Shown one piece after another: positions 19,608-34,730 of a DNA stretch of 64,000 bases. The stretch comes from Clostridia bacterium. Lineage in GTDB: Bacteria; Bacillota; Clostridia; Oscillospirales; CAG-272. The position numbers were made by a program, and so were the translations under genes. The stretch covers positions 1 through 64,000 of the forward strand of contig JAFSYU010000020.1 in the NCBI GenBank assembly GCA_017443595.1. The letters are read 5' to 3'. The notes beneath the pieces were generated by a model. It did not search any database. It was not told the origin of the DNA and saw nothing but the letters and a program-made list of their open reading frames with translations. Position 1 is the stretch's first letter; each line of letters opens with the position of its first letter.

Positions 19608-19689
19608 AGCTTATCCCCTTTCTATAACCAAGTATACCACAAAAACAAAGGACCGTCAATAACTGCTCAGTTGTAAATGATTTTTATAT

Positions 19690-20000: not shown

Positions 20001-20004
20001 TTCA

Positions 20005-20035
20005 AATTAAAACGGGTGAGCGTTGCTCACCCGAA
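20005..20035 (-). terminator. Terminator of the PP2C::HATPase gene
   Basis: GGGTGAGC-gtt-GCTCACCC hairpin, followed on the minus strand by GUUUUAAUUUG. Confidence 0.55.
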
Positions 20036-20050
20036 AATCATAATTTCTGA

Positions 20051-22174
20051 TTATATATTTTTTGTTATCGTAAGATTATTTTTGCCGTCTTTATATTCAT
20101 AGCGCATATCGTCCATGCTCTTTTTTACCATAAATATCCCGAGCCCTCCGATAGGTCTTTCTTCCGCGGACAGCGTTATATCGGGATCCGGCTTTGCAAG
20201 CGGATCGTACTGCTTGCCTTGATCTATAAACGTGATAAGCACACGGCGCGGATCGTCCGCAGTTTCAAATCGGATGGTGATCTGTCCTACCTCGGGCGCG
20301 TATGCGTAATGTGCGACGTTTACGAACAGCTCCTCTACCGCGACGTTGATCTGCATCTGAGTTTTAGCAGGACACTCAAGCGCCTCAAGCCGTTCGTTTA
20401 TAAAAGCAAGCGCGCTGTCAAGATTTTCGTCCGTTGCGTCGAGCGTAAGTTCCGGCGCTTCTTTTTTGCCTTCCGGTCCGGCGTATGAGAAGCCGAGCAT
20501 GGTTATATCGTCAAACTGCGGGGCTTCACCCACGAATTTTTCTATTGCACCGCGAACGTTGGATATAAGCGCGGCAGGTTTGGCGCCGGGATCTATATTC
20601 AACGCGTCGGTCAGGCGCTCTTCTCCGAACAGGATCGTTTCGGCGTTTGTGGCCTCGGTCACGCCGTCCGTATATACGAACAGACTGTCGCCCGGATGAA
20701 GCTCAAACTCGTGCTCCTTGAATCTCATGCCTTCCATCGTCGCCACGGCGGGTGAATGACGGTATTTTATAAGCTCAAACGAGCCGTCCGCGCGGCGGAG
20801 AGCGGGATGCTCGTGTCCGGCGTTTGCGGCAATGCCCTTGCCGGTCGTTATGTCAATAACGGCAAGCCATACCGTTACGAACAGTTCCGCCTCGTTTCCT
20901 TCACATAACTGATCGTTTACGTATTTCAGGATCTCGGCAGGGCCGCCCCCCATCATGGAGCGGTTTTTGATAAGCGTCTTTGCTATGACCATGAACAGCG
21001 CCGCGGGAACTCCCTTTCCGGAAACGTCCGCCATGACAAGGCCTATATGAGAATCGTCTATCATAAAGAAATCGTAGAAGTCGCCGCCGACTTCCTTCGC
21101 CGGCGTCATTGACGCGTAAAGATCAAACTCGGTGCGGTCCGGGAACGCGGGGAATATTCGCGGAAGCATATCCGCCTGGATCTGTGCGGCAACGTTCAGC
21201 TCCGCGCCTATACGCTCCTTTTCTGCCGTTATCGCCGTCAGGTTGACAATATATCTGTTAATATCTCTTTCCATCTGTTTTACGGAATCACACAGCGTCT
21301 CCACCTCGTCGCCGGTGCGGATATTCAGACGTGAGATAGCGGAATCTTCCTTTTGTTCGTCGCTTCGATCCTGTACAAACGAACGCGCTGCATCCGAAAG
21401 CATATTGATCGGTTTTATCAGCGCTATTACTATAGCGATAAGAATGACTGCTATCAATATGATAACGGCAATCCCCATAAATATAATAATACTGCGCAGA
21501 TAATCGGCACGGTCCTGCATTATTTCGTCCATTGATATGTCAACTCCGACAAGTGCAATTGACTTTCCGTTATCATCCCTCACCGGTTCCACGGAGGTAC
21601 ACAGCCAGCCGTACGTATCGTTAGTGATGAACGCGGGAATACCGTCTTCCGGATGTTCAACTTCTTTTGCCGGTCCGGAAACAGCATGTTTTGTCCCGAG
21701 CTGACACTGCTCCTCGGTATCATCCGCATCCATTATGTATGTGATCATATTTCCTTCAAGTATCTGGACGTACAGGTATTTGACCCCGTTGCTTTCTTTG
21801 ATATCGAAAAGAACGTCGAGCATCTCGTAATAGAGATCATCCTTGATCGCGTTGGCTTTCCGGTCATATTCATCCTTGTAAGAGACGTCGCTCCAGTATT
21901 TTGCGTCGTCATATTCACCTATCTGTTTGACAGCTTCGTAATAACGGAGAAGAGCTCCCGCGTCAAGTTGAGAAGCCGCTGTTTTTGCAAGGTTTGAAGA
22001 CAGTGTCTTATAGTGATTGTCCATCGTGGAGCTGTAAACTCTGTAACTTATGGTAACCGCGATGGTTGTCAGCACCAGTGCCGCGAAAATGATAACCGCG
22101 ACGGTTTTAAAACGAAGGGAAACAAGCCTGGATTTCTTTTTGTTTGACTTTGACATTGTATTATTTCCTTTCAA
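20051..22174 (-). CDS. Membrane sensor protein carrying a PP2C (SpoIIE/RsbU-type) phosphatase fused to a HATPase_c (RsbW-like anti-sigma kinase) domain
   Basis: 707 aa. A signal anchor and an extracytoplasmic domain of about 200 aa precede a second transmembrane helix. The PP2C motifs are GGDFYDFFMIDDSHIGLVMADVSGKG and DGVTEA. The C-terminal GHKL fold is VAVEELFVNVAHYAY…GGLGIFMVKKSMD. Confidence 0.7.
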   Translation of the reverse strand: MKGNNTMSKSNKKKSRLVSLRFKTVAVIIFAALVLTTIAVTISYRVYSSTMDNHYKTLSSNLAKTAASQLDAGALLRYYEAVKQIGEYDDAKYWSDVSYKDEYDRKANAIKDDLYYEMLDVLFDIKESNGVKYLYVQILEGNMITYIMDADDTEEQCQLGTKHAVSGPAKEVEHPEDGIPAFITNDTYGWLCTSVEPVRDDNGKSIALVGVDISMDEIMQDRADYLRSIIIFMGIAVIILIAVILIAIVIALIKPINMLSDAARSFVQDRSDEQKEDSAISRLNIRTGDEVETLCDSVKQMERDINRYIVNLTAITAEKERIGAELNVAAQIQADMLPRIFPAFPDRTEFDLYASMTPAKEVGGDFYDFFMIDDSHIGLVMADVSGKGVPAALFMVIAKTLIKNRSMMGGGPAEILKYVNDQLCEGNEAELFVTVWLAVIDITTGKGIAANAGHEHPALRRADGSFELIKYRHSPAVATMEGMRFKEHEFELHPGDSLFVYTDGVTEATNAETILFGEERLTDALNIDPGAKPAALISNVRGAIEKFVGEAPQFDDITMLGFSYAGPEGKKEAPELTLDATDENLDSALAFINERLEALECPAKTQMQINVAVEELFVNVAHYAYAPEVGQITIRFETADDPRRVLITFIDQGKQYDPLAKPDPDITLSAEERPIGGLGIFMVKKSMDDMRYEYKDGKNNLTITKNI

Positions 22175-23121
22175 ATCAGGATCAGATTTACGTAAGTATT
22201 GCGGAGCGGTGCGTTATACACAATGGAGGAAACGACGTCTTCTCCTTCGCTGCATAAATAATCCGGAAGGTATGCCGTAAGCTGCTTCACGGAGAATGTT
22301 TCACATAAAGCATATGCAACTCTTCTGATCTGCTGCAGAGAAAGATTTGTTTCGATCACCTTAAGCGAATCATTTTGAGGAGCGCACATGATGAAATATT
22401 TGCAGCCGTCAAGCTCGACGCTGAGTGTCCTGCCGCCGAAAAACGCGGTTTCGTTGATGCAGAAGCCCACGTGCCGGTCAGACCATTTGACGTACGGATG
22501 AGAGGAAAACGCACAATCGCGCATCCGGTTGTAATCCTTTGGCAAAACCGGAGAAAAAACAACGTCTTCTTTTATTTCCGGGCATACGGTGACAAGCTTA
22601 AGAATTGCGTCCTGCTCAAAGCCAAGTGTTTTATAATACGGTATAATGTCCCGGCGAACGGGTTTGCCGAAAAGTGCGCAGTTGTTGTTTCTTGCATATT
22701 CCTCCACGTAATGAAACAGCGCGGTGTAGTATCCGTTTTTTCGGTATTCGGGTAAGGATCCGCCTGCGTACAGAAATTTTGCGTTTAGTGCCTCAGCCCC
22801 GTCGACAAATGAAGCGTCAAACCAATGCAGCATGCTTACAGGCTGACCGTCGACCGCATAAACCGCTGTCGTTATATGACCGAAATTTTCACGGTAAAAA
22901 AACCTGACGTAGTCTTCATCGTCGCCGAAGCAAACCTTCCAAATTCTGCACAGCGATGCTATATCTTTCTCTTCTGCAGTGCGTATTCCGTTGTCCAATT
23001 TATCAAACCTCCACGGTGAGTGTATTGAATCCGGCATAGCGCCGGTAGAAAAAGCGTTTTGATTTTGCTTTGACCATTTGTATTCCGAGCGCGGCAAGAC
23101 TTTCCTCGTCCTCGTAATCAC
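22171..23121 (-). CDS. GNAT-fold acyltransferase-like protein. The start is uncertain because the listed N-terminus overlaps the upstream gene by 118 nt.
   Basis: 316 aa as listed. A GNAT-like N-terminus begins around IRTAEEKDIASLCRIW. ATGA overlap with the downstream PP2C gene indicates coupling. Confidence 0.4.
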   Translation of the reverse strand: MITRTRKVLPRSEYKWSKQNQNAFSTGAMPDSIHSPWRFDKLDNGIRTAEEKDIASLCRIWKVCFGDDEDYVRFFYRENFGHITTAVYAVDGQPVSMLHWFDASFVDGAEALNAKFLYAGGSLPEYRKNGYYTALFHYVEEYARNNNCALFGKPVRRDIIPYYKTLGFEQDAILKLVTVCPEIKEDVVFSPVLPKDYNRMRDCAFSSHPYVKWSDRHVGFCINETAFFGGRTLSVELDGCKYFIMCAPQNDSLKVIETNLSLQQIRRVAYALCETFSVKQLTAYLPDYLCSEGEDVVSSIVYNAPLRNTYVNLILI

Positions 23122-24760
23122 GTCCGGTCTTCATAGCGAACGGGTTGAAGTCTACGGCGTTGTCACGCAGATGAAGCACTGCAGTGCCGTCATTTTCGAT
23201 ACACAGCGTAAGCTGTATATACTCGTCACCCTTTTTACGGAATGCGTTGTCTATTATTGCCTGACATACTTCCTCAACACATAAGGTAATATAATATACC
23301 TTCTTAGGATCAGCATCGTTTTCTTCACAGAAGCCTTCGGCTTTGCTCAAAAGATCGGAGATATCCGAGGAATTGGCGTCAAGCAGATATGAGAAGACCG
23401 CGTCTGTTTCTTTTCGCTTTTTGATATGGCAAACGGGGACCCAGATCGCAAGTGTTCCAAGCTCCGCCGCCAAAAAAACGAACCAGAACCATTTAATTCC
23501 AAACGATGAGAATATTACCGCAAATCCGGCAAAGCAGACGAAGGTGCGAAGCTGATTTATCAAAAATACTATTTTTTCTCTGCCTATAGTTTGAAAGCAC
23601 GAGCTCCACGTAATGCTCAATCCGGCGGGTATAACCGACAGACAGAACAGCCGCACGGCGAACGCTCCGTCGGTTACGGCATCGCCCGTAAGTCCGAACA
23701 GCGCGCAGACAGACGGCGCAAATACCGCGAAAAGCACGGATATTACCCCGCCGCATATCACACCGATACCGATGGCGAGAATCATTACGCGTTTGATCGC
23801 ATCCTTATTGTGTTCCGCATAAAACGTTCCGGACAGAGGCTGAGCCGTATCACCGAGAGCCAGATATAAAGCCAGCGCAAAATATGAAACGTTTTGAACG
23901 ACGTTCATCTGCGCCAAAGCGCTCTCGCCTCCGAGACGCAGTAATATATTATTTACGATAAGAAGCGCGGCAAACTGACCGATATAGCCGAAGGAAGAAG
24001 ACATTCCCGTTTTAAGCACGCTGAATATCAGCTTTATATCGGGTTTTGAGAATTTGAAGCGCAGTATCGCCCATTTGCGCGTAAAGTGCATTGAAAAAAT
24101 AACGATACCTATCGCTTTTCCTAATACCGTCGCGATTATCGCACCGCGCACGTCAAGCTTGAAAACGAGTATCAGGACAGCGCTTGCGGCGACGTCTGAC
24201 AGATATCCTGTCAGATATCCCGCGCTTGCGAGCTTTTCGTTATCGTCACAGCGTATGCAGTAATATAATAAAAAATATACGAAGGTCAGAGGCGCTCCCC
24301 AGAACATGATCTGCAGATAATCTTTTGTATAATTCCACAACTCCGTGCCCTCGGTCCCGGCGCCGAGCCCTTTAAGTATATACGGCATAAACAATGAGCC
24401 GAGCACGGCTATCATGACGCTGATAATCAAAGCAACTATAAGCATCTGTGAGAAGACTTTGATCCCGTCCTTCGCCCTACCCTTGCCTATCGCTCTCGTA
24501 TAATGCACGGAAGCACCGATGGCTATCCCGATGTCAAGAACGTTGAATATCATATAGACCGGCGCGACAAGCGACATTGTAGCAAGTCCCGTTTTTCCTA
24601 TGCGGATACCGATGAAGAGGGCGTCGGCAATATCTCCGAGTGCAAGTCCGAGCGACGAAAGAAGCGTCGGCCAAAGCAGCCGCCGGAACATACTGTCGGT
24701 AAACGATTTACTATTTATTCCATTTAATGCGGTATCGCTCATATCGCTCTTCCTTCCCAT
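23003..24760 (-). CDS. MATE/MOP-superfamily membrane protein fused to a C-terminal HATPase_c (anti-sigma-kinase-like) domain
   Basis: 585 aa, probably starting at M7 (24742) with ATGA coupling to the upstream gene. About 12 transmembrane helices of MATE type are followed by ITLCVEEVCQAIIDNAF…IQLTLCIENDGTAVLHLRDNAVDFNPF, a GHKL-like segment. Confidence 0.5.
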   Translation of the reverse strand: MGRKSDMSDTALNGINSKSFTDSMFRRLLWPTLLSSLGLALGDIADALFIGIRIGKTGLATMSLVAPVYMIFNVLDIGIAIGASVHYTRAIGKGRAKDGIKVFSQMLIVALIISVMIAVLGSLFMPYILKGLGAGTEGTELWNYTKDYLQIMFWGAPLTFVYFLLYYCIRCDDNEKLASAGYLTGYLSDVAASAVLILVFKLDVRGAIIATVLGKAIGIVIFSMHFTRKWAILRFKFSKPDIKLIFSVLKTGMSSSFGYIGQFAALLIVNNILLRLGGESALAQMNVVQNVSYFALALYLALGDTAQPLSGTFYAEHNKDAIKRVMILAIGIGVICGGVISVLFAVFAPSVCALFGLTGDAVTDGAFAVRLFCLSVIPAGLSITWSSCFQTIGREKIVFLINQLRTFVCFAGFAVIFSSFGIKWFWFVFLAAELGTLAIWVPVCHIKKRKETDAVFSYLLDANSSDISDLLSKAEGFCEENDADPKKVYYITLCVEEVCQAIIDNAFRKKGDEYIQLTLCIENDGTAVLHLRDNAVDFNPFAMKTGRDYEDEESLAALGIQMVKAKSKRFFYRRYAGFNTLTVEV

Positions 24761-25626
24761 ATGCGGATAAGTTCTTTAGGTCTGCGCAGCAGTTTGTGCG
24801 TTCGTAACCCCGGCAGTCCCATATCTTCCTCCGAATCAACGGTTTTGACTTCATCAGGCAAAAAGCGGTACAGTTCCCGTTTTATAAAACAGTCGCACGA
24901 CCTGTTTAAAACCTTGCAAAAACTGACGTCAAATATCTCGGGTATAACAAAAACACCTGCTGCGTACGCAACGTCTTTGTCATCCGCTTTGAAGAGTGCG
25001 CCCCACAGCTGCAGCTGTGAAAAATGACACAGCGCTTTTTCGGCGGCTGCGGTATCGGCAAGATCGTCGCCCGAGCGTCCTTCCGTCCATTTGCGGTTGA
25101 TGATACGCGCCCGATCAACGTTTTCATCGCATAACGGTTCCACAGACCATGATAAAGCCATGGAACGTCCGAGATTTACCTGATGACGCAAATTTTTGAA
25201 TTCTTTTCCGGCAAGCGCGATCTGTTCGTCTTTATCGTACAAATACGGATAATCGTCACGACAGGCGGTAAATCTGAACCTGCCGGAATAGACACGCTCC
25301 AAAAACAACATGTCCTCGTCGGTCACAAAAGAAAAGACCGGTGAACATTTTGTCAAAAGCGTGTCGATCAGCTGTTTTTTTCCGGTTTCCGTGCCGCACG
25401 GAAAAAGATACACATCTTCACCGCGTACACCGTGCCTGATAAGGAAAGCATCGTCAGATATGTATATTTCATAACCCTCGTGCTCTTGCCATACAAACAG
25501 AGAAGCAAACGTGTAAACGTACATAGTGCTGCGCGATTTTTTACGGATAAACTCTATCTTTTCCATTTGAGAAAACGTAATAGGCGTAAACCGGATCGGC
25601 GTATGGTTACCGAGATTTAATGGCAT
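24739..25626 (-). CDS. DUF2156 (LPG-synthase C-terminal / MprF-like aminoacyl-tRNA transferase fold) domain protein
   Basis: 295 aa. The assignment is by similarity to the DUF2156 family of standalone GNAT-fold aminoacyl-tRNA-dependent transferases. It is moderate-confidence and from memory. Confidence 0.4.
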   Translation of the reverse strand: MPLNLGNHTPIRFTPITFSQMEKIEFIRKKSRSTMYVYTFASLFVWQEHEGYEIYISDDAFLIRHGVRGEDVYLFPCGTETGKKQLIDTLLTKCSPVFSFVTDEDMLFLERVYSGRFRFTACRDDYPYLYDKDEQIALAGKEFKNLRHQVNLGRSMALSWSVEPLCDENVDRARIINRKWTEGRSGDDLADTAAAEKALCHFSQLQLWGALFKADDKDVAYAAGVFVIPEIFDVSFCKVLNRSCDCFIKRELYRFLPDEVKTVDSEEDMGLPGLRTHKLLRRPKELIRIWEGRAI

Positions 25627-25682
25627 AATTTAATTCTCTAAACTTAACAAAGATGATTGGCGTGTTCACAGAGACAAAAACA

Positions 25683-25979
25683 TCATTCAATACTTAAAAT
25701 ATCGACAAATCCCGTAACGTCAAAGATCTCCATGATCTCGGGTTTTACGTTCGTTATCTTCATCTCTCCCTGCTTGTTCATCACCTTCTGTGCGGCAAGA
25801 AGCACGCGCAGTCCGGCGGAAGATATGTAATCGAGTTTTTCAAAATCAAACGTGAGCCCGCTTATACCGTTGACAGATGTGCGAAGCTCTGCTTCAAGCT
25901 GCGGAGAAGTTGTGGTGTCAAGACGTCCTTCAAGTACGATCGTAAGTTTATCTCCGTTCTGATTTTTGGTGATAGTCAT
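25683..25979 (-). CDS. STAS-domain anti-sigma-factor antagonist (SpoIIAA/RsbV-like)
   Basis: 98 aa, with the signature LDYISSAGLRVLL and a conserved phospho-Ser context. Confidence 0.8.
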   Translation of the reverse strand: MTITKNQNGDKLTIVLEGRLDTTTSPQLEAELRTSVNGISGLTFDFEKLDYISSAGLRVLLAAQKVMNKQGEMKITNVKPEIMEIFDVTGFVDILSIE

Positions 25980-26019
25980 TTTATGTACGTATCCTTTCGG
26001 TTATTGTATTATTGTTTAA

Positions 26020-26087
26020 ACTCTGTCTGCAACGCAGACAGCTCCCTCGGCGAGGGAGCGCTGCTATGCCTCTTTTTTTGTGAGGCG
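26020..26087. terminator. Cluster of three hairpins between the precursor-peptide genes and the STAS gene, probably a partial terminator or attenuator
   Basis: CTGTCTGC-aac-GCAGACAG, CTCCCTCG-GCGAGGGAG and GCCTC-tttttttgt-GAGGC. Confidence 0.45.
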
Positions 26088-26107
26088 GAAAAAGCTGTGT
26101 AAGAAAA

Positions 26108-26335
26108 TTATTTTAAGGTTTTTAAGTTGAATGCGGTTTCGGTTTCTTTTTTCTTTTTCAGCTGTGATCCGGTCATTTCATTGATACTGCTGGTATCCTC
26201 GTTGCTCTCGGTTGACGCGTCCTCGTATCCCAGGGTTACGCCTTTCTTTGAGTTAACCATCGCGCGGCCTCCCGCCACTTCGTTCAACAGGTCGTCGCTC
26301 AGTTCTGCATTTTTAAGATCTTTTTTGTCAGGCAT
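26108..26335 (-). CDS. Double-glycine-leader precursor peptide (paralog 1) with a hydrophilic Ser/Thr/Asp/Glu/Lys-rich core
   Basis: 75 aa. The leader MPDKKDLKNAELSDDLLNEVAGG fits the LSxxELxxVxGG double-glycine motif. A strong ribosome-binding site is present. The 52-aa core contains no Cys. Confidence 0.6.
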   Translation of the reverse strand: MPDKKDLKNAELSDDLLNEVAGGRAMVNSKKGVTLGYEDASTESNEDTSSINEMTGSQLKKKKETETAFNLKTLK

Positions 26336-26372
26336 TGTATTTTCCTCTTTTCTTTTTATTTTTTATTTTAAA

Positions 26373-26600
26373 TTATTTCAGGATCCTAACGTGTAACACG
26401 TTTTCGGTTTCTTTTTTCTTTTTCAGCTGTGATCCGGTCGCTTCATTGATACTGCCGGTATCCTCGCTGCTCTCGGTCGACGCGTCCTCGTATCCCAGGG
26501 TTACGCCTTTCTTTGAGTTCACGGTCGCGCGGCCTCCCGCCGCTCCGTTCAACTGATCGTCGCTCAGTTCTTTTGATCTGTTTTTTTTCTCATCATCCAT
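26373..26600 (-). CDS. Double-glycine-leader precursor peptide (paralog 2, a tandem duplicate)
   Basis: 75 aa. The leader is ELSDDQLNGAAGG, and the core is 80-90% identical to paralog 1. The duplication is visible at the DNA level. Confidence 0.6.
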   Translation of the reverse strand: MDDEKKNRSKELSDDQLNGAAGGRATVNSKKGVTLGYEDASTESSEDTGSINEATGSQLKKKKETENVLHVRILK

Positions 26601-26675
26601 ATCTTTTTTCCTTTCTTATACAGCAGGCTTGAATAGCCGTACAGTCGTTTTATCCCGGTATGTATACGCAATACG

Positions 26676-26984
26676 TCACAGCAGCGGAATGATGCCGTTA
26701 TCTTTCATTTCTTTAAGACAATCCCGGCAATAGCCGTATTCAAGTTCCGAGGAATATTTCTCGGCGTCACAGCGTTTGCATCTTAATATGGCGTCTTTAA
26801 CCTGACGGTGATATCCGCCGCTGATCTTATCAAGCGCCTCTGCCGGCAGTTCGACGCCTTCCTCGTCTGCAAACCTGATAAACTCTTCTTTGGTCTTACA
26901 TTCTTTTGCCTTTTTCTTCTGCTCGTCGGTAAGGGAATCCAGAACACCCTTGAGGGCTTCATTCAGCTTATCGTCCATGATCAC
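26676..26984 (-). CDS. Nif11-type (N11P) leader-peptide precursor with a CxxC-x16-CxxC core
   Basis: 102 aa. The leader MIMDDKLNEALKGVLDSLTDEQ…EEFIRFADEEGVELPAEALDKISGG resembles the Nif11 leader family and ends in GG. The 45-aa core is YHRQVKDAILRCKRCDAEKYSSELEYGYCRDCLKEMKDNGIIPLL. A strong GAGGAG ribosome-binding site is present. Confidence 0.55.
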   Translation of the reverse strand: MIMDDKLNEALKGVLDSLTDEQKKKAKECKTKEEFIRFADEEGVELPAEALDKISGGYHRQVKDAILRCKRCDAEKYSSELEYGYCRDCLKEMKDNGIIPLL

Positions 26985-27051
26985 TTTCTCCTCATAATTT
27001 TCTTAATTTAATTATGTCCGGCGCGGCGCGGGGCGGCTGCTGTATTTCATC

Positions 27052-27531
27052 TTATCCGAGCGCCGTACGCAGAGCGGACAACGCTTTATTGTGCCGTATT
27101 TTTACCATTCCGTAACTGATACCGAGCGTCTCAGCGATCTCTGTCAGCGGCATACGGTCGTAGTAATGAAGAACTATAACGTCTGTAAGCTCATCCGGCA
27201 GGTCCTCAAGCGCCCCGGCAAGCTCACGAAGCATCTCGGCGTTTGTGACCTCGTCTTCGGGTGAGCTGTCGCCCGGCACGTCCTCCGGGATCTCTTCCGT
27301 AGGACGCGCTCTGCGGCAGTAATCTATAACGGTGTTTTTAGTGATCGTATATATCCACGTTCCGACCGACGCTTTTGACGGATCGTAGTCGTCCGCGCAG
27401 CTGAACGCTTTTACAAAAACGTCTTCGCAAAGATCTTCAACGTCACTTTCGTTATAGATACGGGAACGTATGTAGGACGTTACCTTCCCGCGATATTCGG
27501 TATACAACCGTTCTTTTTCATCCGCCGTCAT
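27052..27531 (-). CDS. ECF-type sigma-70 family RNA polymerase sigma factor
   Basis: 159 aa. Region 2 (DLCEDVFVKAF…TWIYTITKNTVIDYCRR) and region 4 (LTEIAETLGISYGMVKIRHNKALSALR) are both recognisable. Confidence 0.8.
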   Translation of the reverse strand: MTADEKERLYTEYRGKVTSYIRSRIYNESDVEDLCEDVFVKAFSCADDYDPSKASVGTWIYTITKNTVIDYCRRARPTEEIPEDVPGDSSPEDEVTNAEMLRELAGALEDLPDELTDVIVLHYYDRMPLTEIAETLGISYGMVKIRHNKALSALRTALG

Positions 27532-27734
27532 ACCGGGGATCCTCCCGGCATTTTTTTCTTTCCGGCTATTTCAGATATCTGTTGAACACCTGCCGCGGAG
27601 ACCGAGTCAAGCTCGTCGTCTGTAAGCTCGCGCTCTTCAACGCGGCGGTGAACGCCGTCTATCACCTTCTGCAGCCGGAGATCGTTTTCAAAGTGCTGAT
27701 AATCAAAGAGGTTTTGTAATTTTGTTTTTGTCAC
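27528..27734 (-). CDS. Small hypothetical protein translationally coupled to the ECF sigma gene
   Basis: 68 aa with a GTG start and a GGAGG ribosome-binding site. Its stop overlaps the sigma-factor start. It carries a leader-like ELTDDELDSVSAAG segment. Confidence 0.4.
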   Translation of the reverse strand: MTKTKLQNLFDYQHFENDLRLQKVIDGVHRRVEERELTDDELDSVSAAGVQQISEIAGKKKMPGGSPV

Positions 27735-27800
27735 TCTTGATCCTCCTTTGCCGCTTTGTCTTACGCCTGTTTATACGCAGAAAAATTCGTTATGGCAGTG

Positions 27801-27866
27801 TTTTTTTCAAATTTTTTTGATTTTTTTCGGATTTTTTCGTTTTTTTCAGTTTTTTTCGTCTTTTTG
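27801..27866. promoter_or_regulatory. Array of seven helically phased T/A-tracts, predicted intrinsically curved DNA, upstream of the sigma/peptide transcription unit
   Basis: T5-7 tracts begin at 27801, 27812, 27821, 27832, 27841, 27851 and 27861, a period of about 10 bp. The array overlaps the last codons of the ABC gene. Confidence 0.5.
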
Positions 27867-30050
27867 AACCGTATCGAGTCTCTGACGCGCTACAAGTTCC
27901 GCAAAGAAGCCTTCCTTTGCTATAAGATCGTCATACGTTCCGTCCTCAACTATTTTGCCGTGATCGAGCACGATTATGCGGTCGCACTGGCGTATAGTTG
28001 AAAGGCGGTGCGCTATGACTATACGCGTGCATTTCATCCTGTCAAGCGCGTCTGAGACCTGCTTCTGAGTTATATTGTCAAGAGCGCTCGTCGCCTCGTC
28101 AAACATAAGTATCCTCGGTTTTGGGGCAACTGCGCGAGCGATAAAGAGCCTCTGCCGCTGTCCGCCGGATATACCGCCCTGTCCCTCTGAGATAAGCGTG
28201 TTCATCCCCATGGGCATAGCGCGTATATCGTCAGCCATACCGGCTATCTCCGCCGCCTCCCACGCGTCGTCAAGCGTCAGCCACGGCGCGGAGATCGTGA
28301 TATTGGAGAAAATATCTCCGGTAAACAGTTTTCCGCTCTGCATTACCGCACCGATCTTACGGCGCAGTGATTTTAAATCGAGCTTTTTGATATCGTGTCC
28401 GTCGTAATACACGGCTCCCTTCTGCGGTGTTTCAAAGCCGAGCATTATCCTCATAAGCGTTGACTTGCCGCAGCCTGTCTTTCCGACTATGGCAACGTAC
28501 TGGCCGGGACGGATCTTCAAAGACAGATCGTCGATGACCGGCGGCATATCGTCGGTATAACGGAAAGTTATATTATTCAGCTCTATCCCTCCGGAAAGAC
28601 GCGTGACCACCTGTTTGTCAAGCGAGATCTCAGGCTCCGCCTCCATTATCGGCTTTGCCATTTCAAGCGCCGGTTTTATCTGCGCAAGTCCCGTTGCGAT
28701 ACCGGCGAGCGCGATAAACGCGCTGTTGACCATACCGTAAGCTGAGTTGAACGCGTAATACTCCGCTACCGAGACGTTTGTCTTTACCGCGATGAAAAAC
28801 ATTGCTATGGTGCCGACAAGCGAAACGGCGAGAGTAATGACGGATGAGATCTTCAGAAACAGCGGCGGATCGTAAAGGAGCTTTGCGTCCTTTGCGTACA
28901 TTTTGCCCCATTTGGCAAACGCTCTCTGCTCCGCGCCCGAAAGCTTTATTTTCTGTATACCGGATATAAGCTGATAACTCATACCCAATTCCTTGCTTTC
29001 GTGCTCCATGCTCTGACGCGTTATCTTCATCTGTATGAAGATCCTGATAACGGTGATCAAAAGCGTTGCAAAAGTGACTATGAGCGCGGGCGCGACGAGC
29101 GCGGGCGCGTATTTGAATATCTGGAAAATATATACTATGGAGAATACCGACGCCATTCCCGTAGTCAGAAACATACTTGCTATCTGGCTGCAAAGTCCGT
29201 TTATGTAACCGGCGCGGTTAGAAAGCTCACCGGCGCTGTAATCCTTGAAGAAATCCGGCGGCAGCGAAAGGATCCGCATCATGGTCGCCGCTTCTACCGA
29301 AAGATTCAGCTTTGTTCCTATGCGCGACGTCAGAAGCGCGCGGACGGACGTAAAGAGAAGAATGCTCAGCGACGCGCTTATCATAAATACAGCCGTGCCG
29401 ATAAGCGCCGAAGCGCTGCCCGACGTTATAACGTACGAAAACAGATAATTGTTGAGCCGCGGTATCAGCATACCTATGCCGGTCACCGCAAGCATTGCAA
29501 GTATAAGCGGAATGATATCCGAAAACGATATCTGCTGGATTATATATTTAAGTAAGCTTCCGACCGTCATTTTTGAGATCGGGAACGGTTTATAGAAAGC
29601 TATTGCTTCCTTTTCTATAATATCCTGATTTTTGCGGTTGATCCGCACCGTTTTTCCGAGCTTCCTGTCATAAAAGCTGTAGCCGTTCAGTCCGGTGGGT
29701 ATCAGAGCGACGACGCTGCCGTCGTCCCGGCGCGTGCCAAGCATCGCTCCTATCGCGTCGCGGTACCAGCCCTTTTCAAGTTCTACGGAGCGGCGCATGA
29801 ATCCCGCGGGACGCAGCAGATATTCAAGCACCTCGTTCATATCAGTGATCGCATCCGGCACTTCCTGCGCTGCAACGTGATAATATTTTAAAATATCTCC
29901 TATCGCGTCAGCCGTGATCTGTCTGTCGTCATTGAGCGATTTGCTCATCCGGCGGCCCATAACGGCGTCCGCCATCTGCTCAAACGACTCTTCAAACACC
30001 GCCTGATCCGCGTCTTTTCTTTTGCGTATCTGTTCATCAAACCAGCCCAT
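27846..30050 (-). CDS. NHLM-type bacteriocin ABC transporter, ATP-binding/permease subunit, with a degenerate non-catalytic N-terminal domain
   Basis: 734 aa. An N-terminal domain of about 160 aa lacking the catalytic Cys is followed by a six-helix permease and an ABC ATPase with Walker A GKTGCGKST and signature LSGGQRQR. Confidence 0.7.
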   Translation of the reverse strand: MGWFDEQIRKRKDADQAVFEESFEQMADAVMGRRMSKSLNDDRQITADAIGDILKYYHVAAQEVPDAITDMNEVLEYLLRPAGFMRRSVELEKGWYRDAIGAMLGTRRDDGSVVALIPTGLNGYSFYDRKLGKTVRINRKNQDIIEKEAIAFYKPFPISKMTVGSLLKYIIQQISFSDIIPLILAMLAVTGIGMLIPRLNNYLFSYVITSGSASALIGTAVFMISASLSILLFTSVRALLTSRIGTKLNLSVEAATMMRILSLPPDFFKDYSAGELSNRAGYINGLCSQIASMFLTTGMASVFSIVYIFQIFKYAPALVAPALIVTFATLLITVIRIFIQMKITRQSMEHESKELGMSYQLISGIQKIKLSGAEQRAFAKWGKMYAKDAKLLYDPPLFLKISSVITLAVSLVGTIAMFFIAVKTNVSVAEYYAFNSAYGMVNSAFIALAGIATGLAQIKPALEMAKPIMEAEPEISLDKQVVTRLSGGIELNNITFRYTDDMPPVIDDLSLKIRPGQYVAIVGKTGCGKSTLMRIMLGFETPQKGAVYYDGHDIKKLDLKSLRRKIGAVMQSGKLFTGDIFSNITISAPWLTLDDAWEAAEIAGMADDIRAMPMGMNTLISEGQGGISGGQRQRLFIARAVAPKPRILMFDEATSALDNITQKQVSDALDRMKCTRIVIAHRLSTIRQCDRIIVLDHGKIVEDGTYDDLIAKEGFFAELVARQRLDTVQKDEKN

Positions 30051-30062
30051 TACGTCACCCCC

Positions 30063-32258
30063 TTATTCCGACGTCACGAGCCTTTTGTACGCGCCGTCAA
30101 GAGCCATAAGCTGTTCGTGCGTACCGCGCTCCACGACCTTGCCGTGATCTAAAACGACTATCTCGTCACAGTCACGTATAGTTGAGAGCCTGTGAGCTAT
30201 AACGATGCAGGTTATGCCGCGGTTCTTAATGGAATTCACCACTTCGTACTCTGTTTTGGCGTCAAGCGCGCTTGTCGCCTCGTCAAGTATGATTACAGTG
30301 GGATCCTGCGCAAGAACGCGCGCGATCTCTATACGCTGACGCTGACCGCCGGAGAAATCCTTGCCGCCTTCCGTCAGTACGTACTGGTATCCGCCCTCAC
30401 GCTGTATTATATCCTCATGTATCTGAGCGTCGCGCGCGGCAAGAACTACCTCAAAATCTTCTATTGAATTGTCCCACATTTTTATATTGTTGGATATCGT
30501 GTCTTCAAAAAGGATGATATCCTGATCCACAACGGCTACCGAACCGGTGAACACGCTGCGGTCTATCCGGGAGATCGTTTTGCCGTCAAAGAGTATTTCC
30601 CCACTCCACGGCTGATAAAGTCCGGATATGAGTTTTGATAACGTGGATTTTCCGCAGCCGGACATTCCGACGAACGCCACGCGCTGCCCCTGTTTAAGGT
30701 CAAGGCTGAAATCCTCTATGAGCGGCGCTTCAAGCCGCGAATATCCGAACGTCACGTTCTTCATCTGAAGCGAACCGGAAAGCTTGTCAAAGCCGTCTTC
30801 TTCTCCGTCTGCGCCGTGCTCCTTACTGTTGTGTGCAAATACGGGATCCTCCGGATATTCCATAACGTCTTCTATACGCTCCATTGACGTTCTCATCTCC
30901 TGCATCGTCTGTCCGGCGGAGATAAGATCTGCCGCGGGAGCTATGAACGAGGCGAGAAATCCCTGGAACGCGAATATCATACCGGGTGTAAACTTGCCGA
31001 TCATCACAAGCCATACGCCGAGGATAAGGACCGCCGTGTTCATTATGCCGGAGATCAAAGACGGGATCATTCCGAGATACTGATTTATACGTTCAAAACG
31101 TACTTTCTGCGTATTGACAGACGCCTGGTATCCGGACCATTTTTCAAAATAGCCGTTTTCCGCGCCGCTTGCCTTTATAGTCTCTATCATTTCCACGCCG
31201 GATACGGTGGCGGCAACGAGCTTACCGCTGTCGCGCATCATAACGCGCGTGATGTTCACACGTTTTTTAGATATGTACCGCGAGATCAAAAGCTGAAAGA
31301 TAACGGACGCGACGCCTACGAGCGTGAGTATCCATGAATATCTGATCATGACCGCGAGATAGAAGATCATCATCACCGTGTTCAGTGCGAGCGGTGCGAG
31401 AGTGTTCACTATCTCACCGGCGATATCGGCGTTCAGTTCTTTGCGCTGCTGTATATCGCCCGCCATACGCTGTGAGAAAAACTCCATGGGCAGACGGAGC
31501 ACTTTCCACATATACGTGCTGTTTCCGACGACCGCCATTTTGCCGTCGAGCTTGAGAGAGTATATCGCGTTTATCCAGTTCGCAATAAGCTGAATTACCG
31601 CTATTATGCTCAGACCGACAAAAAACGGTATGAACCAGCCCGGCTGATTCTGCGTCAGAAGTTCGTCTAAGAAAACGCGCGAAAATCCGGCTGATACTAT
31701 TCCTACGAGAGTTGAGATCACGGAGGTTATTATAACAAACGCCACAGCGCCGCCGGCGCCGCGCAGTCTCTTTTTCGTAAAGCTCATTATGCGCTTAGGC
31801 TCTCCGCCCGGCTCAAACTCTTCTCCGGGTTCTATCATAAGGCAGATGCCGGTAAAGCTCTCGTCAAATTTTTCAAGCGTTACGGTATAATCTCCCCTTG
31901 CCGGATCGTTCAAATACACCTTGTTGCCGCGGAATCCGTCGCATACTACAAAGTGGTTGAATTCCCAGTGGATAATGCACGGGAACGTTCCTTTTGCACG
32001 GAGCGTCTCCGGCTCAAAACGGTATCCCTTAGCCGTAAAGCCGTAGTTTCTCGCCGCTTTGAGGATATTGCCCGCCTTGCTGCCGTCACGCGAGACTCCG
32101 CAGTCACGTCTGACCTGTTCAAGCGGCACCCATTTGTTGTAATACGCCATGACCATACACAGGCAGGCGGCGCCGCATTCAAGCGCCTCCATCTGCATGA
32201 TCACAGGTACTTTAGCCCTGCCTTTTGTGACAGGCTGATTTATATTCTTTTTGCTCAT
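30063..32258 (-). CDS. Peptidase-containing ABC transporter (PCAT) with C39 double-glycine peptidase, permease and ATPase domains
   Basis: 731 aa. The C39 motif is QMEALECGAACLCMVMAYY. A permease and an ABC ATPase (GMSGCGKST, LSGGQRQR) follow. Confidence 0.85.
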   Translation of the reverse strand: MSKKNINQPVTKGRAKVPVIMQMEALECGAACLCMVMAYYNKWVPLEQVRRDCGVSRDGSKAGNILKAARNYGFTAKGYRFEPETLRAKGTFPCIIHWEFNHFVVCDGFRGNKVYLNDPARGDYTVTLEKFDESFTGICLMIEPGEEFEPGGEPKRIMSFTKKRLRGAGGAVAFVIITSVISTLVGIVSAGFSRVFLDELLTQNQPGWFIPFFVGLSIIAVIQLIANWINAIYSLKLDGKMAVVGNSTYMWKVLRLPMEFFSQRMAGDIQQRKELNADIAGEIVNTLAPLALNTVMMIFYLAVMIRYSWILTLVGVASVIFQLLISRYISKKRVNITRVMMRDSGKLVAATVSGVEMIETIKASGAENGYFEKWSGYQASVNTQKVRFERINQYLGMIPSLISGIMNTAVLILGVWLVMIGKFTPGMIFAFQGFLASFIAPAADLISAGQTMQEMRTSMERIEDVMEYPEDPVFAHNSKEHGADGEEDGFDKLSGSLQMKNVTFGYSRLEAPLIEDFSLDLKQGQRVAFVGMSGCGKSTLSKLISGLYQPWSGEILFDGKTISRIDRSVFTGSVAVVDQDIILFEDTISNNIKMWDNSIEDFEVVLAARDAQIHEDIIQREGGYQYVLTEGGKDFSGGQRQRIEIARVLAQDPTVIILDEATSALDAKTEYEVVNSIKNRGITCIVIAHRLSTIRDCDEIVVLDHGKVVERGTHEQLMALDGAYKRLVTSE

Positions 32259-32271
32259 AATATATAAACCG

Positions 32272-32532
32272 TCAATTTATTACGTACGTGATAGGAGCGA
32301 CCTCTTTTACGCTGCCGTCGGCATCTTTTACCTCAACTCTGCCGAAAATGCTCCACGTCAGCATACCGATAAGCAGTATCAAAAGCGCAAGAAGCACGAT
32401 CCATACAGAAGGAGAAGTGACTCGGATATAGTCGTTAAGCGACTCCGGGCTTGTTACCTGTTTGATGCTCTTTTCTCTGAAAATGCTGTTTTTTGACTGA
32501 TCTTCCGACATTTTATATCCCTCCCAAATCAT
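32272..32532 (-). pseudogene. HlyD-family NHLM secretion protein reduced to its N-terminal membrane-anchor fragment
   Basis: 86 aa (…SPESLNDYIRVTSPSVWIVLLALLILLIGMLTWSIFGRV…) matches only the N-terminal ~80 aa of periplasmic adaptor proteins that normally run to about 400 aa. Confidence 0.5.
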
Positions 32533-33217
32533 TTTTTACAAAAGCGTAGAATTTTGCGCGTATATCCTTTGCCTGATCACGGCGTAAAAGATACGTTTTA
32601 CCGTCTCTGCTCATACAGTCTTTATATGTCATTCTTGATATATGGTTCATATTAAGCGTGACGCCCTTTTTGATCTGAAGAAAGGAATCGTCAAGCAGCT
32701 CGTCTATCTCTTTAAACGGTTTCCTTATGGAATACACGGTATTGTTGCTGCAGGTGATCTCCGTGTTGTGGCCGTGTCCCTCCACGCGTATGATCTCATC
32801 CTGATAAAGTACGTTGATGACCCGGTCTATCCGTACCGTCAGCGTATGACGCGGTTCCGTCTTTGTCTGCAGGCGGCGGAAGACCTCAACTATGTCTTCC
32901 TGCGACACGGGCTTGACAAGATAATGCACGGCGTCTACGGAAAAAGCATCCACCGCGTGTTCCCGGCTGCTTGTGATAAAAGCCACCGGCGTGTGCGGAC
33001 AGACAGCCTTCATCTGTTTGGCGATCTCTATACCGTTTTCCTCTTTCATGTAAACGTCGCAAAGGAGCAGATCGTAAACGGCGCCGTCCCCGGCTGCTTT
33101 CAGCAGGTCCCTGCCTTCCGAAAACCGGTCAATACGGTAATTGCCGGAAATATTGAAGATCATTTCCTGCAGATTGTATACTTCTTCATTGTCATCATTC
33201 AAAATGGCAATATGCAA
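32513..33217 (-). CDS. LytTR-family response regulator (REC + LytTR DNA-binding domain)
   Basis: 234 aa. The receiver domain has the LLLCDVYM phospho-acceptor-Asp context, and a C-terminal LytTR domain follows. No cognate histidine kinase lies in the window. Confidence 0.8.
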   Translation of the reverse strand: MHIAILNDDNEEVYNLQEMIFNISGNYRIDRFSEGRDLLKAAGDGAVYDLLLCDVYMKEENGIEIAKQMKAVCPHTPVAFITSSREHAVDAFSVDAVHYLVKPVSQEDIVEVFRRLQTKTEPRHTLTVRIDRVINVLYQDEIIRVEGHGHNTEITCSNNTVYSIRKPFKEIDELLDDSFLQIKKGVTLNMNHISRMTYKDCMSRDGKTYLLRRDQAKDIRAKFYAFVKNDLGGI

Positions 33218-33284
33218 TTCCGATCGTCTCCTTTAATTTAATTATAATATACGATTATATAGTATTATTACCATATTTCAAGAG

Positions 33285-34729: not shown

Positions 34730-34730
34730 T

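What the first reader, a model, noticed from the sequence alone, without database searches (positions are those of the whole stretch)
26108..26600. Tandemly duplicated GG-leader peptides with atypical, highly hydrophilic cores
Two 75-aa paralogs each have a strong ribosome-binding site and a canonical double-glycine leader (ELSDDLLNEVAGG). Their 52-aa cores are rich in Ser, Thr, Asp, Glu and Lys, have no Cys and have no hydrophobic stretch. This is unlike pore-forming class II bacteriocins. Such cores could be O-modified or signalling peptides. The many Ser/Thr hydroxyls are plausible acceptors for aminoacyl or acyl transfer by the neighbouring DUF2156 and GNAT proteins.
Basis: partly seen in the sequence, partly recalled or inferred. 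Interest (0 to 1): 0.62.

Follow-up and report, generated by a model that had tools for sequence, protein, structure and literature searches.

The report
Duplicated hydrophilic double-glycine export peptides
Two tandem genes encode small, very water-soluble, probably unstructured peptides with a standard cleave-and-export tag for the ABC transporter next door; they are one species-specific filling of a swappable cargo slot found in related rumen bacteria, and the neighbouring DUF2156 and GNAT enzymes are very unlikely to be there to modify them.

Summary
Two 75-aa ORFs (minus strand, 26108-26335 and 26373-26600) form a 265-bp tandem duplication. Each has an RBS, a canonical double-glycine leader (L-12, L-7, V/A-4, GG) and a 52-aa Cys-free core (GRAVY about -1, 33% charged, 23-25% Ser+Thr) that AlphaFold leaves as coil.

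They lie in an operon-like run: short HlyD-like ORF, C39 peptidase ABC transporter (TIGR03796), partner ABC (TIGR03797), 68-aa ORF, ECF sigma, a Zn-ribbon-type GG peptide, pep2, pep1.

The family is real but tiny: seven clusters among billions of proteins, dN/dS 0.16-0.6, all apparently from rumen Clostridia.

In seven related species-level loci the stretch between the ABC partner and a STAS gene is a hypervariable slot. It holds 1-5 unrelated GG peptides, mostly Lys-rich hydrophilic or CxxC..CxxC, and in one case a peptide with its own radical SAM enzyme.

DUF2156-MatE-GNAT-PP2C is a separate cassette. It is invariant in all 41 loci examined, and 18 of the 26 loci with at least 3 kb upstream carry no peptides or transporter. 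Hairpins separate it from pep1. The proposed aminoacyl/acyl modification is therefore not supported.

Best reading: unmodified, leader-cleaved, exported cargo of unknown extracellular role. This is a new member of a known kind, of modest interest.

The parts
26108..26335 (-). pep1: 75-aa precursor, leader MPDKKDLKNAELSDDLLNEVAGG, 52-aa hydrophilic core RAMVNSKK...AFNLKTLK
   Evidence: ORF. RBS and DNA alignment. Composition. AlphaFold2 shows only the leader helix 14-21, core as coil, mean pLDDT 61.
26373..26600 (-). pep2: 75-aa paralogue, leader MDDEKKNRSKELSDDQLNGAAGG, core RATVNSKK...VLHVRILK
   Evidence: ORF. 72% identical to pep1. 265-nt direct repeat.
26676..26984 (-). Third GG-leader precursor (100-102 aa): Nif11-like four-helix leader ending DKISGG, 45-aa core with CxxC...CxxC
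   Evidence: ORF. Weak TIGR03798 and type-Z S14 hits, both below cut-off. AlphaFold2 core residues 64-95 at pLDDT about 85, beta-hairpin plus helix. Foldseek gives only non-significant Zn-ribbon ribosomal proteins.
27052..27531 (-). ECF-type sigma-70 factor, 159 aa
   Evidence: Pfam Sigma70_r2/r4. TIGR02937 at 105.8 bits. Orthologues sit in the same position in L005 and L043.
27528..27734 (-). Unannotated 68-aa ORF. Its stop overlaps the sigma start. It has a conserved N-terminal 45 aa, then a leader-like ELTDDELDSVSAAG and a short hydrophilic tail.
   Evidence: Read from sequence. Homologues directly upstream of the sigma gene in L005 and L043. No Pfam family.
27771..27800 (-). Promoter-like element CACTGCC-N15-GCGTATAA, preceded by phased A-tracts (about 27800-27860)
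   Evidence: At 0 mismatches it occurs once in the window, at this site, and again at the equivalent site in L005. Function is inferred.
27846..30050 (-). ABC permease/ATPase partner without a C39 domain (NHLP-type ABC2)
   Evidence: TIGR03797 at 716.9 bits against a cut-off of 709.4. Pfam ABC_membrane and ABC_tran.
30063..32258 (-). Peptidase-containing ABC transporter (PCAT) with a C39 domain; Cys28, His102 and Asp118 present
   Evidence: TIGR03796 at 950 bits against a cut-off of 853. Peptidase_C39 2.6e-34. LahT150 (6mpz) 5.3e-71 and PCAT1 (4ry2) 1.7e-99. Catalytic motifs.
32272..32532 (-). Short (79-86 aa) single-TM ORF that I judge to resemble the N-terminus of NHLP-type HlyD accessory proteins
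   Evidence: ORF. Conserved directly upstream of the PCAT in L001, L004 and L042. No Pfam hit. The HlyD resemblance rests on my own knowledge of that family.
26024..26059 (-). Two adjacent GC-rich hairpins between the pep1 stop and the STAS start; probable transcript end or stabiliser that bounds the peptide module
   Evidence: RNA fold -35.4 kcal/mol, z = -3.7, 0 of 200 shuffles as stable. No canonical U-tract, and the terminator scan did not call it.
20051..25979 (-). Adjacent but separate conserved cassette: STAS (25683-25979), DUF2156 (24739-25626), MatE+HATPase_c_2 (23003-24760), GNAT (22171-23121), PP2C/SpoIIE+HATPase_c_2 (20051-22174). Judged not to be part of the peptide system.
   Evidence: Pfam. 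The cassette is conserved in all 41 DUF2156-anchored loci and mostly lacks peptides.

Best explanation
pep1 and pep2 are ribosomal precursors of unmodified secreted peptides.

Shown. Each carries a canonical double-glycine leader. They sit in one co-oriented gene run with a C39 peptidase ABC transporter (NHLP type), its C39-less ABC partner and a short HlyD-like ORF.

Inferred mechanism. The C39 domain binds the amphipathic leader helix through L-12, L-7 and V/A-4, and cleaves after G23. The 52-aa disordered, zwitterionic core (5.74 and 5.65 kDa) is threaded out unfolded, as described for PCAT1 and its unstructured cargo CtA. Transcription probably starts at the conserved promoter-like site upstream of the 68-aa ORF and the sigma gene, and mostly ends at the hairpins after pep1.

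Shown by comparison. The stretch between the ABC partner and the STAS gene is a hypervariable cargo slot in related rumen Clostridia. The pep family is one fast-evolving, copy-number-variable filling of it (2 copies here, 3 in a near-identical strain). The DUF2156/GNAT cassette downstream is an independent unit.

Inferred role, weakest step. The peptides act outside the cell in interactions between bacteria. A non-pore-forming competition or interference factor is more likely than a pheromone, because such multi-peptide, rapidly diversifying, presence/absence-polymorphic arrays are typical of competition loci.

My confidence is about 0.75 for 'cleaved, exported, not modified by the neighbours' and about 0.35 for the competition role.
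For: - ORFs, leaders and RBS.
- Transporter pair above NCBIfam cut-offs. C39 domain very close to the experimentally promiscuous LahT150 and to PCAT1. Catalytic residues present.
- Recognition rules (L-12, L-7 and -4) and the unstructured 66-aa cargo of PCAT1 are from PMC6959990. LahT150 cleaves diverse cores from a nine-peptide cluster, PMC6363468.
- Core predicted as coil; hydropathy.
- Purifying selection, with the core evolving faster than the leader.
- Cargo slot seen in the window/L001, L004, L005, L008, L009, L042 and L043, with completely different peptides but orthologous flanks: PCAT 80-82% identical where it is complete, ABC2 75-88%, STAS 74-84%.
- Three copies, including a leader/core chimera, in L001.
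- No maturase gene within the module in the window.
- Cassette independence. Hairpin boundary.
Against: - No experimental evidence of expression, cleavage or export.
- No immunity-like small membrane protein lies in the slot, which weakens a bacteriocin-type role.
- The cores are nearly net-neutral (+1) and not amphipathic, so no known killing mechanism fits.
- The cargo module is always next to the STAS cassette in the seven loci seen. A functional link is therefore not excluded, although the loci are phylogenetically close and may share one ancestral insertion.
- T42 and S44 are invariant and could mark a modification site.
Confidence: 0.6

Rival explanations
1. The peptides are quorum or communication signals. 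After export, the cores (or a C-terminal fragment such as AFNLKTLK) are sensed by the producer population. The read-out would be the local ECF sigma factor and/or the membrane MatE-kinase/STAS/PP2C partner-switching cassette.
For: A sigma factor and a conserved 68-aa ORF are co-transcribed with the peptides in three loci. A LytTR response regulator precedes the transporter operon in the window. A partner-switching module with a membrane-anchored kinase domain is always adjacent. Hydrophilic GG peptides with non-bacteriocin roles are mentioned in PMC7018657 (BriC), and a VP1 preprint was listed but not read.
Against: There is no histidine kinase or other receptor gene in the module. The LytTR regulator is not conserved: L004 and L042 have xylose/AraC genes there instead. 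L004, L009 and L042 lack the sigma gene. Arrays hold 2-6 unrelated peptides, and the peptide set is replaced between species with no co-varying receptor seen. At 52 aa the core is long for a pheromone.
Confidence: 0.2
2. One reading: the cores are RiPP substrates. Their Ser/Thr hydroxyls are aminoacylated from aminoacyl-tRNA by the DUF2156 protein and/or acylated by the GNAT before export.
For: The genes are near each other. DUF2156 belongs to the LPG_synthase_C family (73 bits), whose characterised members transfer aminoacyl groups from tRNA (my own knowledge). The cores are 23-25% Ser/Thr, with an invariant A-x-T-x-S motif. The adjacency is kept in seven species-level loci.
Against: The cassette occurs unchanged without any GG peptide or PCAT in 18 of the 26 loci with at least 3 kb upstream. 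GG-leader ORFs are found only where the PCAT is present. Cargo in the other loci includes Ser/Thr-poor Lys-rich and Cys-type cores. The one evidently modified cargo carries its own radical SAM enzyme. Hairpins or a terminator separate the modules. STAS is fused to DUF2156 in one homologue (P0090), which ties DUF2156 to the regulatory cassette. The closest solved structure is an uncharacterised protein (2hqy). No paper links DUF2156 with double-glycine peptides.
Confidence: 0.06
3. The peptides are modified, but by an enzyme encoded elsewhere in the genome, for example a radical SAM/SPASM enzyme like the one in the slot of L042.
For: L042 carries a Cys-free Nif11-leader peptide followed by a 464-aa radical SAM enzyme in the same slot. 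L004 has a homologous peptide (shared ATFG.x.YNT motif) without the enzyme. The pep leaders give weak matches to the XyeA triceptide model (14-16 bits against a cut-off of 33).
Against: No homologue of the L042 radical SAM protein exists anywhere in the 64-kb window. The pep leader is short (23 aa), with no extra conserved region for an enzyme to recognise. The weak model hits cover only the generic leader.
Confidence: 0.08
4. The ORFs are not functional genes. They would be decaying duplicates, or chance ORFs on the strand opposite to the real feature.
For: The family is very small. There are no Pfam, NCBIfam or PDB matches. The near-identical central DNA of the two copies could reflect recent duplication rather than selection. 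Long antisense ORFs exist.
Against: Homologues at 48-53% identity keep length, start, GG position, Lys run and C-terminal FN[LV]K motif. dN/dS is below 1 in every pair. RBS are present. The orientation and context match the PCAT. The antisense ORFs are not conserved in length in L039 and L041.
Confidence: 0.04

Closest known systems
LahT and the LahA1-9 precursor array of Lachnospiraceae bacterium C6A11 (PMC6363468)
   Same: [quoted passage not shown] The C39 domain is very similar (6mpz, 5.3e-71 over residues 1-148). One transporter serves several precursor genes with conserved GG leaders and highly diverse cores.
   Different: The paper describes the LahA leaders as Nif11 type. pep1 and pep2 have short 23-aa leaders, Cys-free hydrophilic cores, and no maturase in the module.
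PCAT1 and its cargo CtA from Clostridium thermocellum (PMC6959990)
   Same: Full-length transporter homologue (4ry2, 1.7e-99). The cargo has a 24-residue leader plus a 66-residue core that is flexible and unstructured in the complex; the passages I read give no function for it. Recognition is through L-12, L-7 and position -4.
   Different: There is no detectable sequence relation between the cores (PDB search gave nothing). Here there is a second, C39-less ABC partner plus a HlyD-like ORF, and a multi-peptide variable slot.
NHLP/Nif11 precursor-transporter systems (Haft et al. 2010, PMC2887384; TIGR03796/03797/03794/03798)
   Same: The transporter pair scores above the equivalog cut-offs of TIGR03796 and TIGR03797. 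The neighbouring 102-aa peptide has a Nif11-like helical leader.
   Different: pep1 and pep2 lack an NHLP or Nif11 leader. Only a truncated HlyD-like ORF is present. There is no cyclodehydratase, LanM or radical SAM gene in the window module.
Pneumococcal RtgAB and the rtg GG peptides (PMC7018657)
   Same: A strain-variable locus with a PCAT and several GG peptides whose function the authors could not determine and only speculated to be bacteriocins.
   Different: The rtg peptides are associated with immunity-like genes and Rgg/SHP control. Here there are no immunity-like genes, and an ECF sigma factor sits in their place.
RaxX/RaxB of Xanthomonas (from my own knowledge; PMC8872720 was only listed, not read)
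   Same: A hydrophilic GG-leader peptide exported by a PCAT that acts as a signal rather than a pore former.
   Different: RaxX is Tyr-sulfated by a dedicated sulfotransferase encoded beside it. No such enzyme is present here, and Tyr37 is not conserved in the family.

Membership tests
Double-glycine-leader peptides (PCAT/AMS substrates) | Gly-Gly (or GA/GS) at -2/-1, 15-30 residues from the N-terminus | tested here: met
   G22-G23 in both peptides. Invariant in all eight family members aligned.
Double-glycine-leader peptides (PCAT/AMS substrates) | Hydrophobic residues at -12, -7 and -4 on an amphipathic helix | tested here: met
   L12, L17 and V20 in pep1; L12, L17 and A20 in pep2. Helix 14-21 in the AlphaFold2 model. 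The rule is from PMC6959990.
Double-glycine-leader peptides (PCAT/AMS substrates) | Encoded beside an ABC transporter with a catalytically intact C39 domain | tested here: met
   PCAT at 30063-32258, same strand, about 3.5 kb upstream. Peptidase_C39 2.6e-34. Cys28, His102 and Asp118 present.
Double-glycine-leader peptides (PCAT/AMS substrates) | Leader actually removed and core exported | not testable with these tools
   Needs an in vitro C39 assay or mass spectrometry of supernatant.
Class II (unmodified, membrane-active) bacteriocins | Amphiphilic or hydrophobic core able to insert into membranes | tested here: not met
   GRAVY -1.02 and -0.90. Best 19-residue window -0.48 and -0.56. Helical hydrophobic moment 0.40-0.45, net charge +1.
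Class II (unmodified, membrane-active) bacteriocins | Dedicated immunity gene next to the structural gene | tested here: not met
   No small membrane-protein ORF lies between the ABC partner and STAS in the window, nor in L005 or L043.
Class II (unmodified, membrane-active) bacteriocins | Antimicrobial activity | not testable with these tools
   Requires synthetic or purified peptide.
NHLP/Nif11 RiPP precursor systems (Haft 2010) | TIGR03796 + TIGR03797 transporter pair | tested here: met
   950.2 bits against a cut-off of 853.3, and 716.9 against 709.4.
NHLP/Nif11 RiPP precursor systems (Haft 2010) | Precursor with an NHLP or Nif11 leader domain | tested here: not met
   pep1 and pep2 give no hit to TIGR03798 or to NHLP models. 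Only the neighbouring 102-aa peptide gives a sub-threshold 13.4 bits against a cut-off of 32.3.
NHLP/Nif11 RiPP precursor systems (Haft 2010) | Core-modifying enzyme (cyclodehydratase, LanM, radical SAM) in the cluster | tested here: not met
   None among the window genes 18981-37200. No homologue of the L042 radical SAM enzyme in the window.
   18 of the 26 cassette loci with at least 3 kb upstream lack PCAT, ABC2 and GG-leader ORFs.
   T42 and S44 are invariant within the pep family. Cargo in sister loci shares no such motif and is often Ser/Thr-poor.
   Needs mass spectrometry.
GG-leader pheromone with three-component (HK / LytTR RR) control | Cognate histidine kinase and response regulator conserved with the peptide and transporter | tested here: not met
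   No kinase gene next to the LytTR regulator. The regulator is absent upstream of the orthologous transporters in L004 and L042.

The most novel reading that the evidence does not exclude
The retained adjacency of the cargo slot to the STAS-DUF2156-MatE-GNAT-PP2C cassette is functional. Under this reading the DUF2156 protein (aminoacyl-tRNA-dependent transferase fold) and the GNAT decorate Ser/Thr of these disordered GG-leader cores before PCAT export. That would define a new tRNA-dependent, O-aminoacylated/acetylated RiPP class whose production is gated by partner-switching phosphorylation.
Probability: 0.05. Interest if true: 0.85.

Novelty: new member of a known kind. Interest (0 to 1): 0.36.

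Why it matters
If the reading is right, this adds a sequence-novel, intrinsically disordered, hydrophilic cargo family to the growing set of PCAT substrates that are neither classical bacteriocins nor known pheromones, such as CtA and the rtg peptides.

It also documents a plug-in cargo slot in uncultured rumen Clostridia. Short-leader hydrophilic, Zn-ribbon-type and radical-SAM-modified peptides are exchanged there behind one conserved, probably promiscuous, LahT-like transporter.

That is useful for genome mining, because such cores are missed by bacteriocin and RiPP rules. It is also useful for choosing test substrates. It does not by itself open a long-standing question.

The negative result matters too. 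Proximity of DUF2156 and GNAT genes should not be read as a RiPP tailoring pathway here.

Tried and rejected
- Tandem Repeats Finder on the window found nothing. The duplication was shown instead by the repeat finder and by alignment, and TRF does detect it in the three-copy strain.
- Scans of GTDB genomes and of JGI metagenomes with the peptide alignments found no relatives. Family breadth therefore rests on the two protein searches.
- The profile search also hit long repeat proteins (P0130-P0135) containing 'LSDEEVQDVVGGMV..N.ESGISVTYDD', which resembles the leader plus the start of the core. I judged this to be weak per-repeat similarity inflated by 3-8 repeats. It was rejected as homology but not formally excluded.
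- The LytTR regulator and the ThiF/PP-loop/hydrolase genes upstream were considered as module members. They were rejected because orthologous modules in L004 and L042 are preceded by xylose/AraC genes.
- A shared 'TGCGTATA' element upstream of both pep2 and the sigma operon is not enriched: 5 matches against 2.5 expected. Only the longer promoter-like element upstream of the 68-aa ORF is conserved.
- The sigma-70 promoter and terminator consensus scans were at background level.
- PDB sequence search with the peptide profile gave nothing. Foldseek on the Zn-type peptide gave nothing significant.
- The literature search for DUF2156 together with double-glycine returned zero papers. No paper listed appears to describe the cassette.
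Full report
**Observation**

- They are 72% identical in protein.
- They form a 202-nt direct repeat at 88% identity with 265-nt spacing. The central core DNA is almost identical and the divergence sits at the two ends.
- Both have purine-rich ribosome-binding sites: GAGG for pep1 and AAGGA for pep2.
- Both leaders have the canonical register L-12, L-7, V/A-4, G-2, G-1. The quoted leader ELSDDLLNEVAGG is that of pep1; pep2 reads ELSDDQLNGAAGG.
- The 52-aa cores have no Cys, 23-25% Ser+Thr, 33% charged residues, net charge +1 and GRAVY -1.02/-0.90.
- AlphaFold2 predicts only the leader helix (residues 14-21) and leaves the core as coil at pLDDT about 60.

A simple GG-leader expression hits 3 of 422 small ORFs in the window, and the three are contiguous. 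Over 557 kb of window plus related loci, 24 of 25 hits lie in such arrays.

**Are they genes?**

The word-indexed search of 5.8 billion proteins found five clusters at 68-99% identity. The exhaustive profile search of 1.84 billion representatives added two 73-75-aa relatives, P0128 and P0129, at roughly 50% identity.

All of them keep the length, the GG-R junction, an S/T-K-K motif, an A-x-T-x-S motif, a Lys run and a C-terminal [AP]FN[LV]K or VLHVRILK-type end.

Pairwise dN/dS is 0.16-0.6. The core changes faster than the leader, with dN 0.46-0.65 against about 0.2. So these are coding and under purifying but relaxed constraint. The antisense ORFs are not conserved.

**Context in the window (minus strand, 5' to 3')**

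| Feature | Coordinates |
|---|---|
| LytTR response regulator | 32513-33217 |
| 79-86-aa single-TM HlyD-like ORF | 32272-32532 |
| C39 peptidase ABC transporter (PCAT) | 30063-32258 |
| C39-less ABC partner | 27846-30050 |
| Unannotated 68-aa ORF, overlapping the sigma start | 27528-27734 |
| ECF sigma factor | 27052-27531 |
| 102-aa GG peptide, Nif11-like leader, CxxC..CxxC core | 26676-26984 |
| pep2, then pep1 | 26373-26600, 26108-26335 |
| Two strong hairpins | 26024-26059 |
| STAS | 25683-25979 |
| DUF2156 | 24739-25626 |
| MatE fused to an RsbW-like kinase domain | 23003-24760 |
| GNAT | 22171-23121 |
| PP2C with a kinase-like domain | 20051-22174 |

- The transporter pair scores above the equivalog cut-offs of TIGR03796 (950 against 853) and TIGR03797 (717 against 709).
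- The C39 domain is very close to LahT150 (5.3e-71) and the whole protein to PCAT1 (1.7e-99). Cys28, His102 and Asp118 are present.

**Comparative genomics**

A near-identical strain (L001, a 170-kb metagenome contig) has three copies of the 265-bp unit. The middle copy is a pep1-leader/pep2-core chimera. Copy number therefore changes by unequal recombination.

Anchoring on the DUF2156 protein gave 170 homologues and 35 loci from GTDB species representatives, all rumen or gut MAGs labelled Ruminococcus, Clostridia or Oscillospiraceae. Four metagenome loci were added.
- In every one of the 41 loci, DUF2156 is followed by MatE. GNAT and PP2C follow wherever the contig continues.
- STAS precedes DUF2156 in 12 of the 26 loci with at least 3 kb upstream, and in one homologue it is fused to DUF2156 (P0090).
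- Of the 26 loci with at least 3 kb upstream, only 8 (7 species-level) carry the PCAT/ABC2/GG-peptide module. The other 18 have unrelated genes and no GG-leader ORF.

Where the module is present, its flanks are orthologous: the PCAT is 80-82% identical where complete, ABC2 75-88% and STAS 74-84%. The content between ABC2 and STAS is entirely different in each locus.
- L004: one hydrophilic Nif11-leader peptide.
- L005 and L043: a 68-aa-ORF homologue, a sigma gene, four hydrophilic Lys-rich peptides and one CxxC..CxxC peptide.
- L008: two Cys-rich peptides and one hydrophilic peptide.
- L009: one hydrophilic peptide.
- L042: one Cys-free Nif11-leader peptide followed by its own 464-aa radical SAM enzyme.

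The short contigs carrying the distant pep relatives also hold CxxC..CxxC GG peptides next to them.

Two conclusions follow. Hydrophilic, Cys-free cores are the rule rather than the exception in this system. And the slot behaves as a swappable cargo region served by one transporter.

**What this means for the interpretation**

The GG-leader/PCAT-substrate reading is well supported. The recognition logic is taken from the PCAT1-CtA and LahT150 work. L-12 and L-7 form a hydrophobic knot, position -4 confers specificity, the 66-residue cargo is unstructured with no specific contacts, and very different cores are tolerated.

The proposal that DUF2156 and GNAT acylate the cores is not supported, for four reasons.
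- The cassette is a self-contained, widely conserved unit that mostly occurs without peptides.
- It is constant while the cargo is replaced.
- The only obviously modified cargo brings its own enzyme into the slot.
- Hairpins separate the modules in the window (z = -3.7). In L005 a stem plus T-run that I read as a terminator, and about 190 bp, do the same.

The closest solved relative of the DUF2156 protein is an uncharacterised structural-genomics protein (2hqy), so nothing points to peptide substrates.

What I cannot exclude is a looser functional coupling. The module is always next to the cassette in the seven loci, but these are close relatives (DUF2156 at least 64% identical) and may share one ancestral insertion.

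**Mechanism proposed**

Transcription probably starts at a promoter-like element, CACTGCC-N15-GCGTATAA (27771-27800). It is preceded by phased A-tracts and is conserved at the same place in L005. It would run through the 68-aa ORF, sigma, the Zn-type peptide, pep2 and pep1, across intergenic gaps of 67, 75 and 37 nt, and end or be stabilised at the hairpins.

The precursors bind the C39 domain through the leader helix and are cut after G23. They leave as 5.74- and 5.65-kDa disordered peptides.

The steps shown are the sequence features, the context and the comparative pattern. The steps inferred are cleavage, export, lack of modification and the extracellular role. For the role I lean towards a non-pore-forming competition or interference function (about 0.35) over signalling (about 0.2). 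The reason is that multi-peptide, fast-diversifying, presence/absence-polymorphic arrays are typical of competition loci. The lack of immunity genes and the near-neutral charge are real objections.

**Comparison with known systems and novelty**

The system works like LahT/LahA, PCAT1/CtA and the pneumococcal rtg locus.
- It meets the tested defining features of GG-leader PCAT substrates.
- It fails those of membrane-active class II bacteriocins: hydrophobicity and an immunity gene.
- It fails those of NHLP/Nif11 precursors: the leader domain and a maturase.
- It fails those of three-component pheromone loci.

The peptides have no Pfam, NCBIfam or PDB relatives beyond sub-threshold leader matches.

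I rate it a new member of a known kind: a sequence-novel cargo family in a known type of export system, of modest interest. The most novel reading still open, a DUF2156/GNAT-dependent RiPP, I put at about 5%.

Noticed in passing
window 27528-27734 (-); L005 631-810; L043 3663-3854: An unannotated, conserved 61-68-aa ORF is translationally coupled to the ECF sigma gene. It has a conserved N-terminal half (L..LF[DE]YQ.F...L.LQK[VI]ID), then a leader-like [EQ]L..[DE][DE]LD.V[SA]AAG, then a short basic tail (GWFKPLEDNKRRPK, EIKPLDKRERRL, VQQISEIAGKKKMPGGSPV). It could be a PCAT-processed pheromone precursor, or an anti-sigma factor removed by export. No Pfam family matches it.
   Followed up: partly
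window 20051-25979 (-); L002-L038, L042, L043: An invariant cassette, (STAS)-DUF2156-MatE fused to an RsbW-like HATPase_c_2-GNAT-PP2C, is found in about 40 rumen Clostridia loci, and one homologue is a STAS-DUF2156 fusion. It looks like a partner-switching-controlled unit of unknown output. One idea from family knowledge only: a split MprF-like envelope aminoacylation plus flipping system, since MATE belongs to the MOP flippase superfamily. No paper listed appears to describe it.
   Followed up: partly
window 26676-26984 (-); L005 2592-2792; L008 188-689; L039 30-803; L041 426-909; L043 5511-5735: GG-leader peptides whose 45-60-aa cores carry CxxC...CxxC recur in the same slots. The window member folds in AlphaFold2 as a hairpin plus helix at pLDDT about 85, with only non-significant Foldseek resemblance to Zn-ribbon ribosomal proteins uS14/eS29. 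An exported Zn-ribbon mini-protein would be unusual.
   Followed up: partly
L042 7833-9523; L004 9321-9629: A Cys-free Nif11-leader peptide (...KGKQATFGKNLYNTKPFGK) is followed by a 464-aa radical SAM enzyme in L042. A homologous peptide in L004 (...NATFGQTIYNTDTKKFKK) lacks the enzyme. This may be a C-C or ether cross-linked RiPP.
   Followed up: no
L001 9736-10493: A near-identical strain has three copies of the 265-bp unit. The middle copy is a chimera of the pep1 leader and the pep2 core, which shows ongoing unequal recombination.
   Followed up: yes
L005 1316-1651; L043 4826-5149: Two long hydrophilic GG peptides (111 and 107 aa) contain a second, internal leader-like motif (SDKAVGG and DLYDVSGG). 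These may be tandem two-core precursors or fused duplicates.
   Followed up: no
window about 27800-27860 (-): Six phased A-tracts (GAAAAAAA repeated about every 10-11 nt) sit immediately upstream of the conserved promoter-like element, suggesting intrinsically bent DNA. An A-rich stretch is also present in L005.
   Followed up: no
proteins P0130-P0135 (not in the window): Long repeat proteins (540-1827 aa, which look to me like phage tail fibres) contain 'LSDEEVQDVVGGMV..N.ESGISVTYDD'. This resembles residues 12-39 of pep1, spanning the leader and the start of the core. It is probably repeat-inflated chance similarity.
   Followed up: partly
window 34894-37200 (-): ThiF-family E1-like enzyme, PP-loop ATPase and alpha/beta hydrolase genes lie upstream of a GH43 gene and the LytTR regulator. 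They are not conserved with the transporter module in L004 or L042, so they are probably unrelated.
   Followed up: partly
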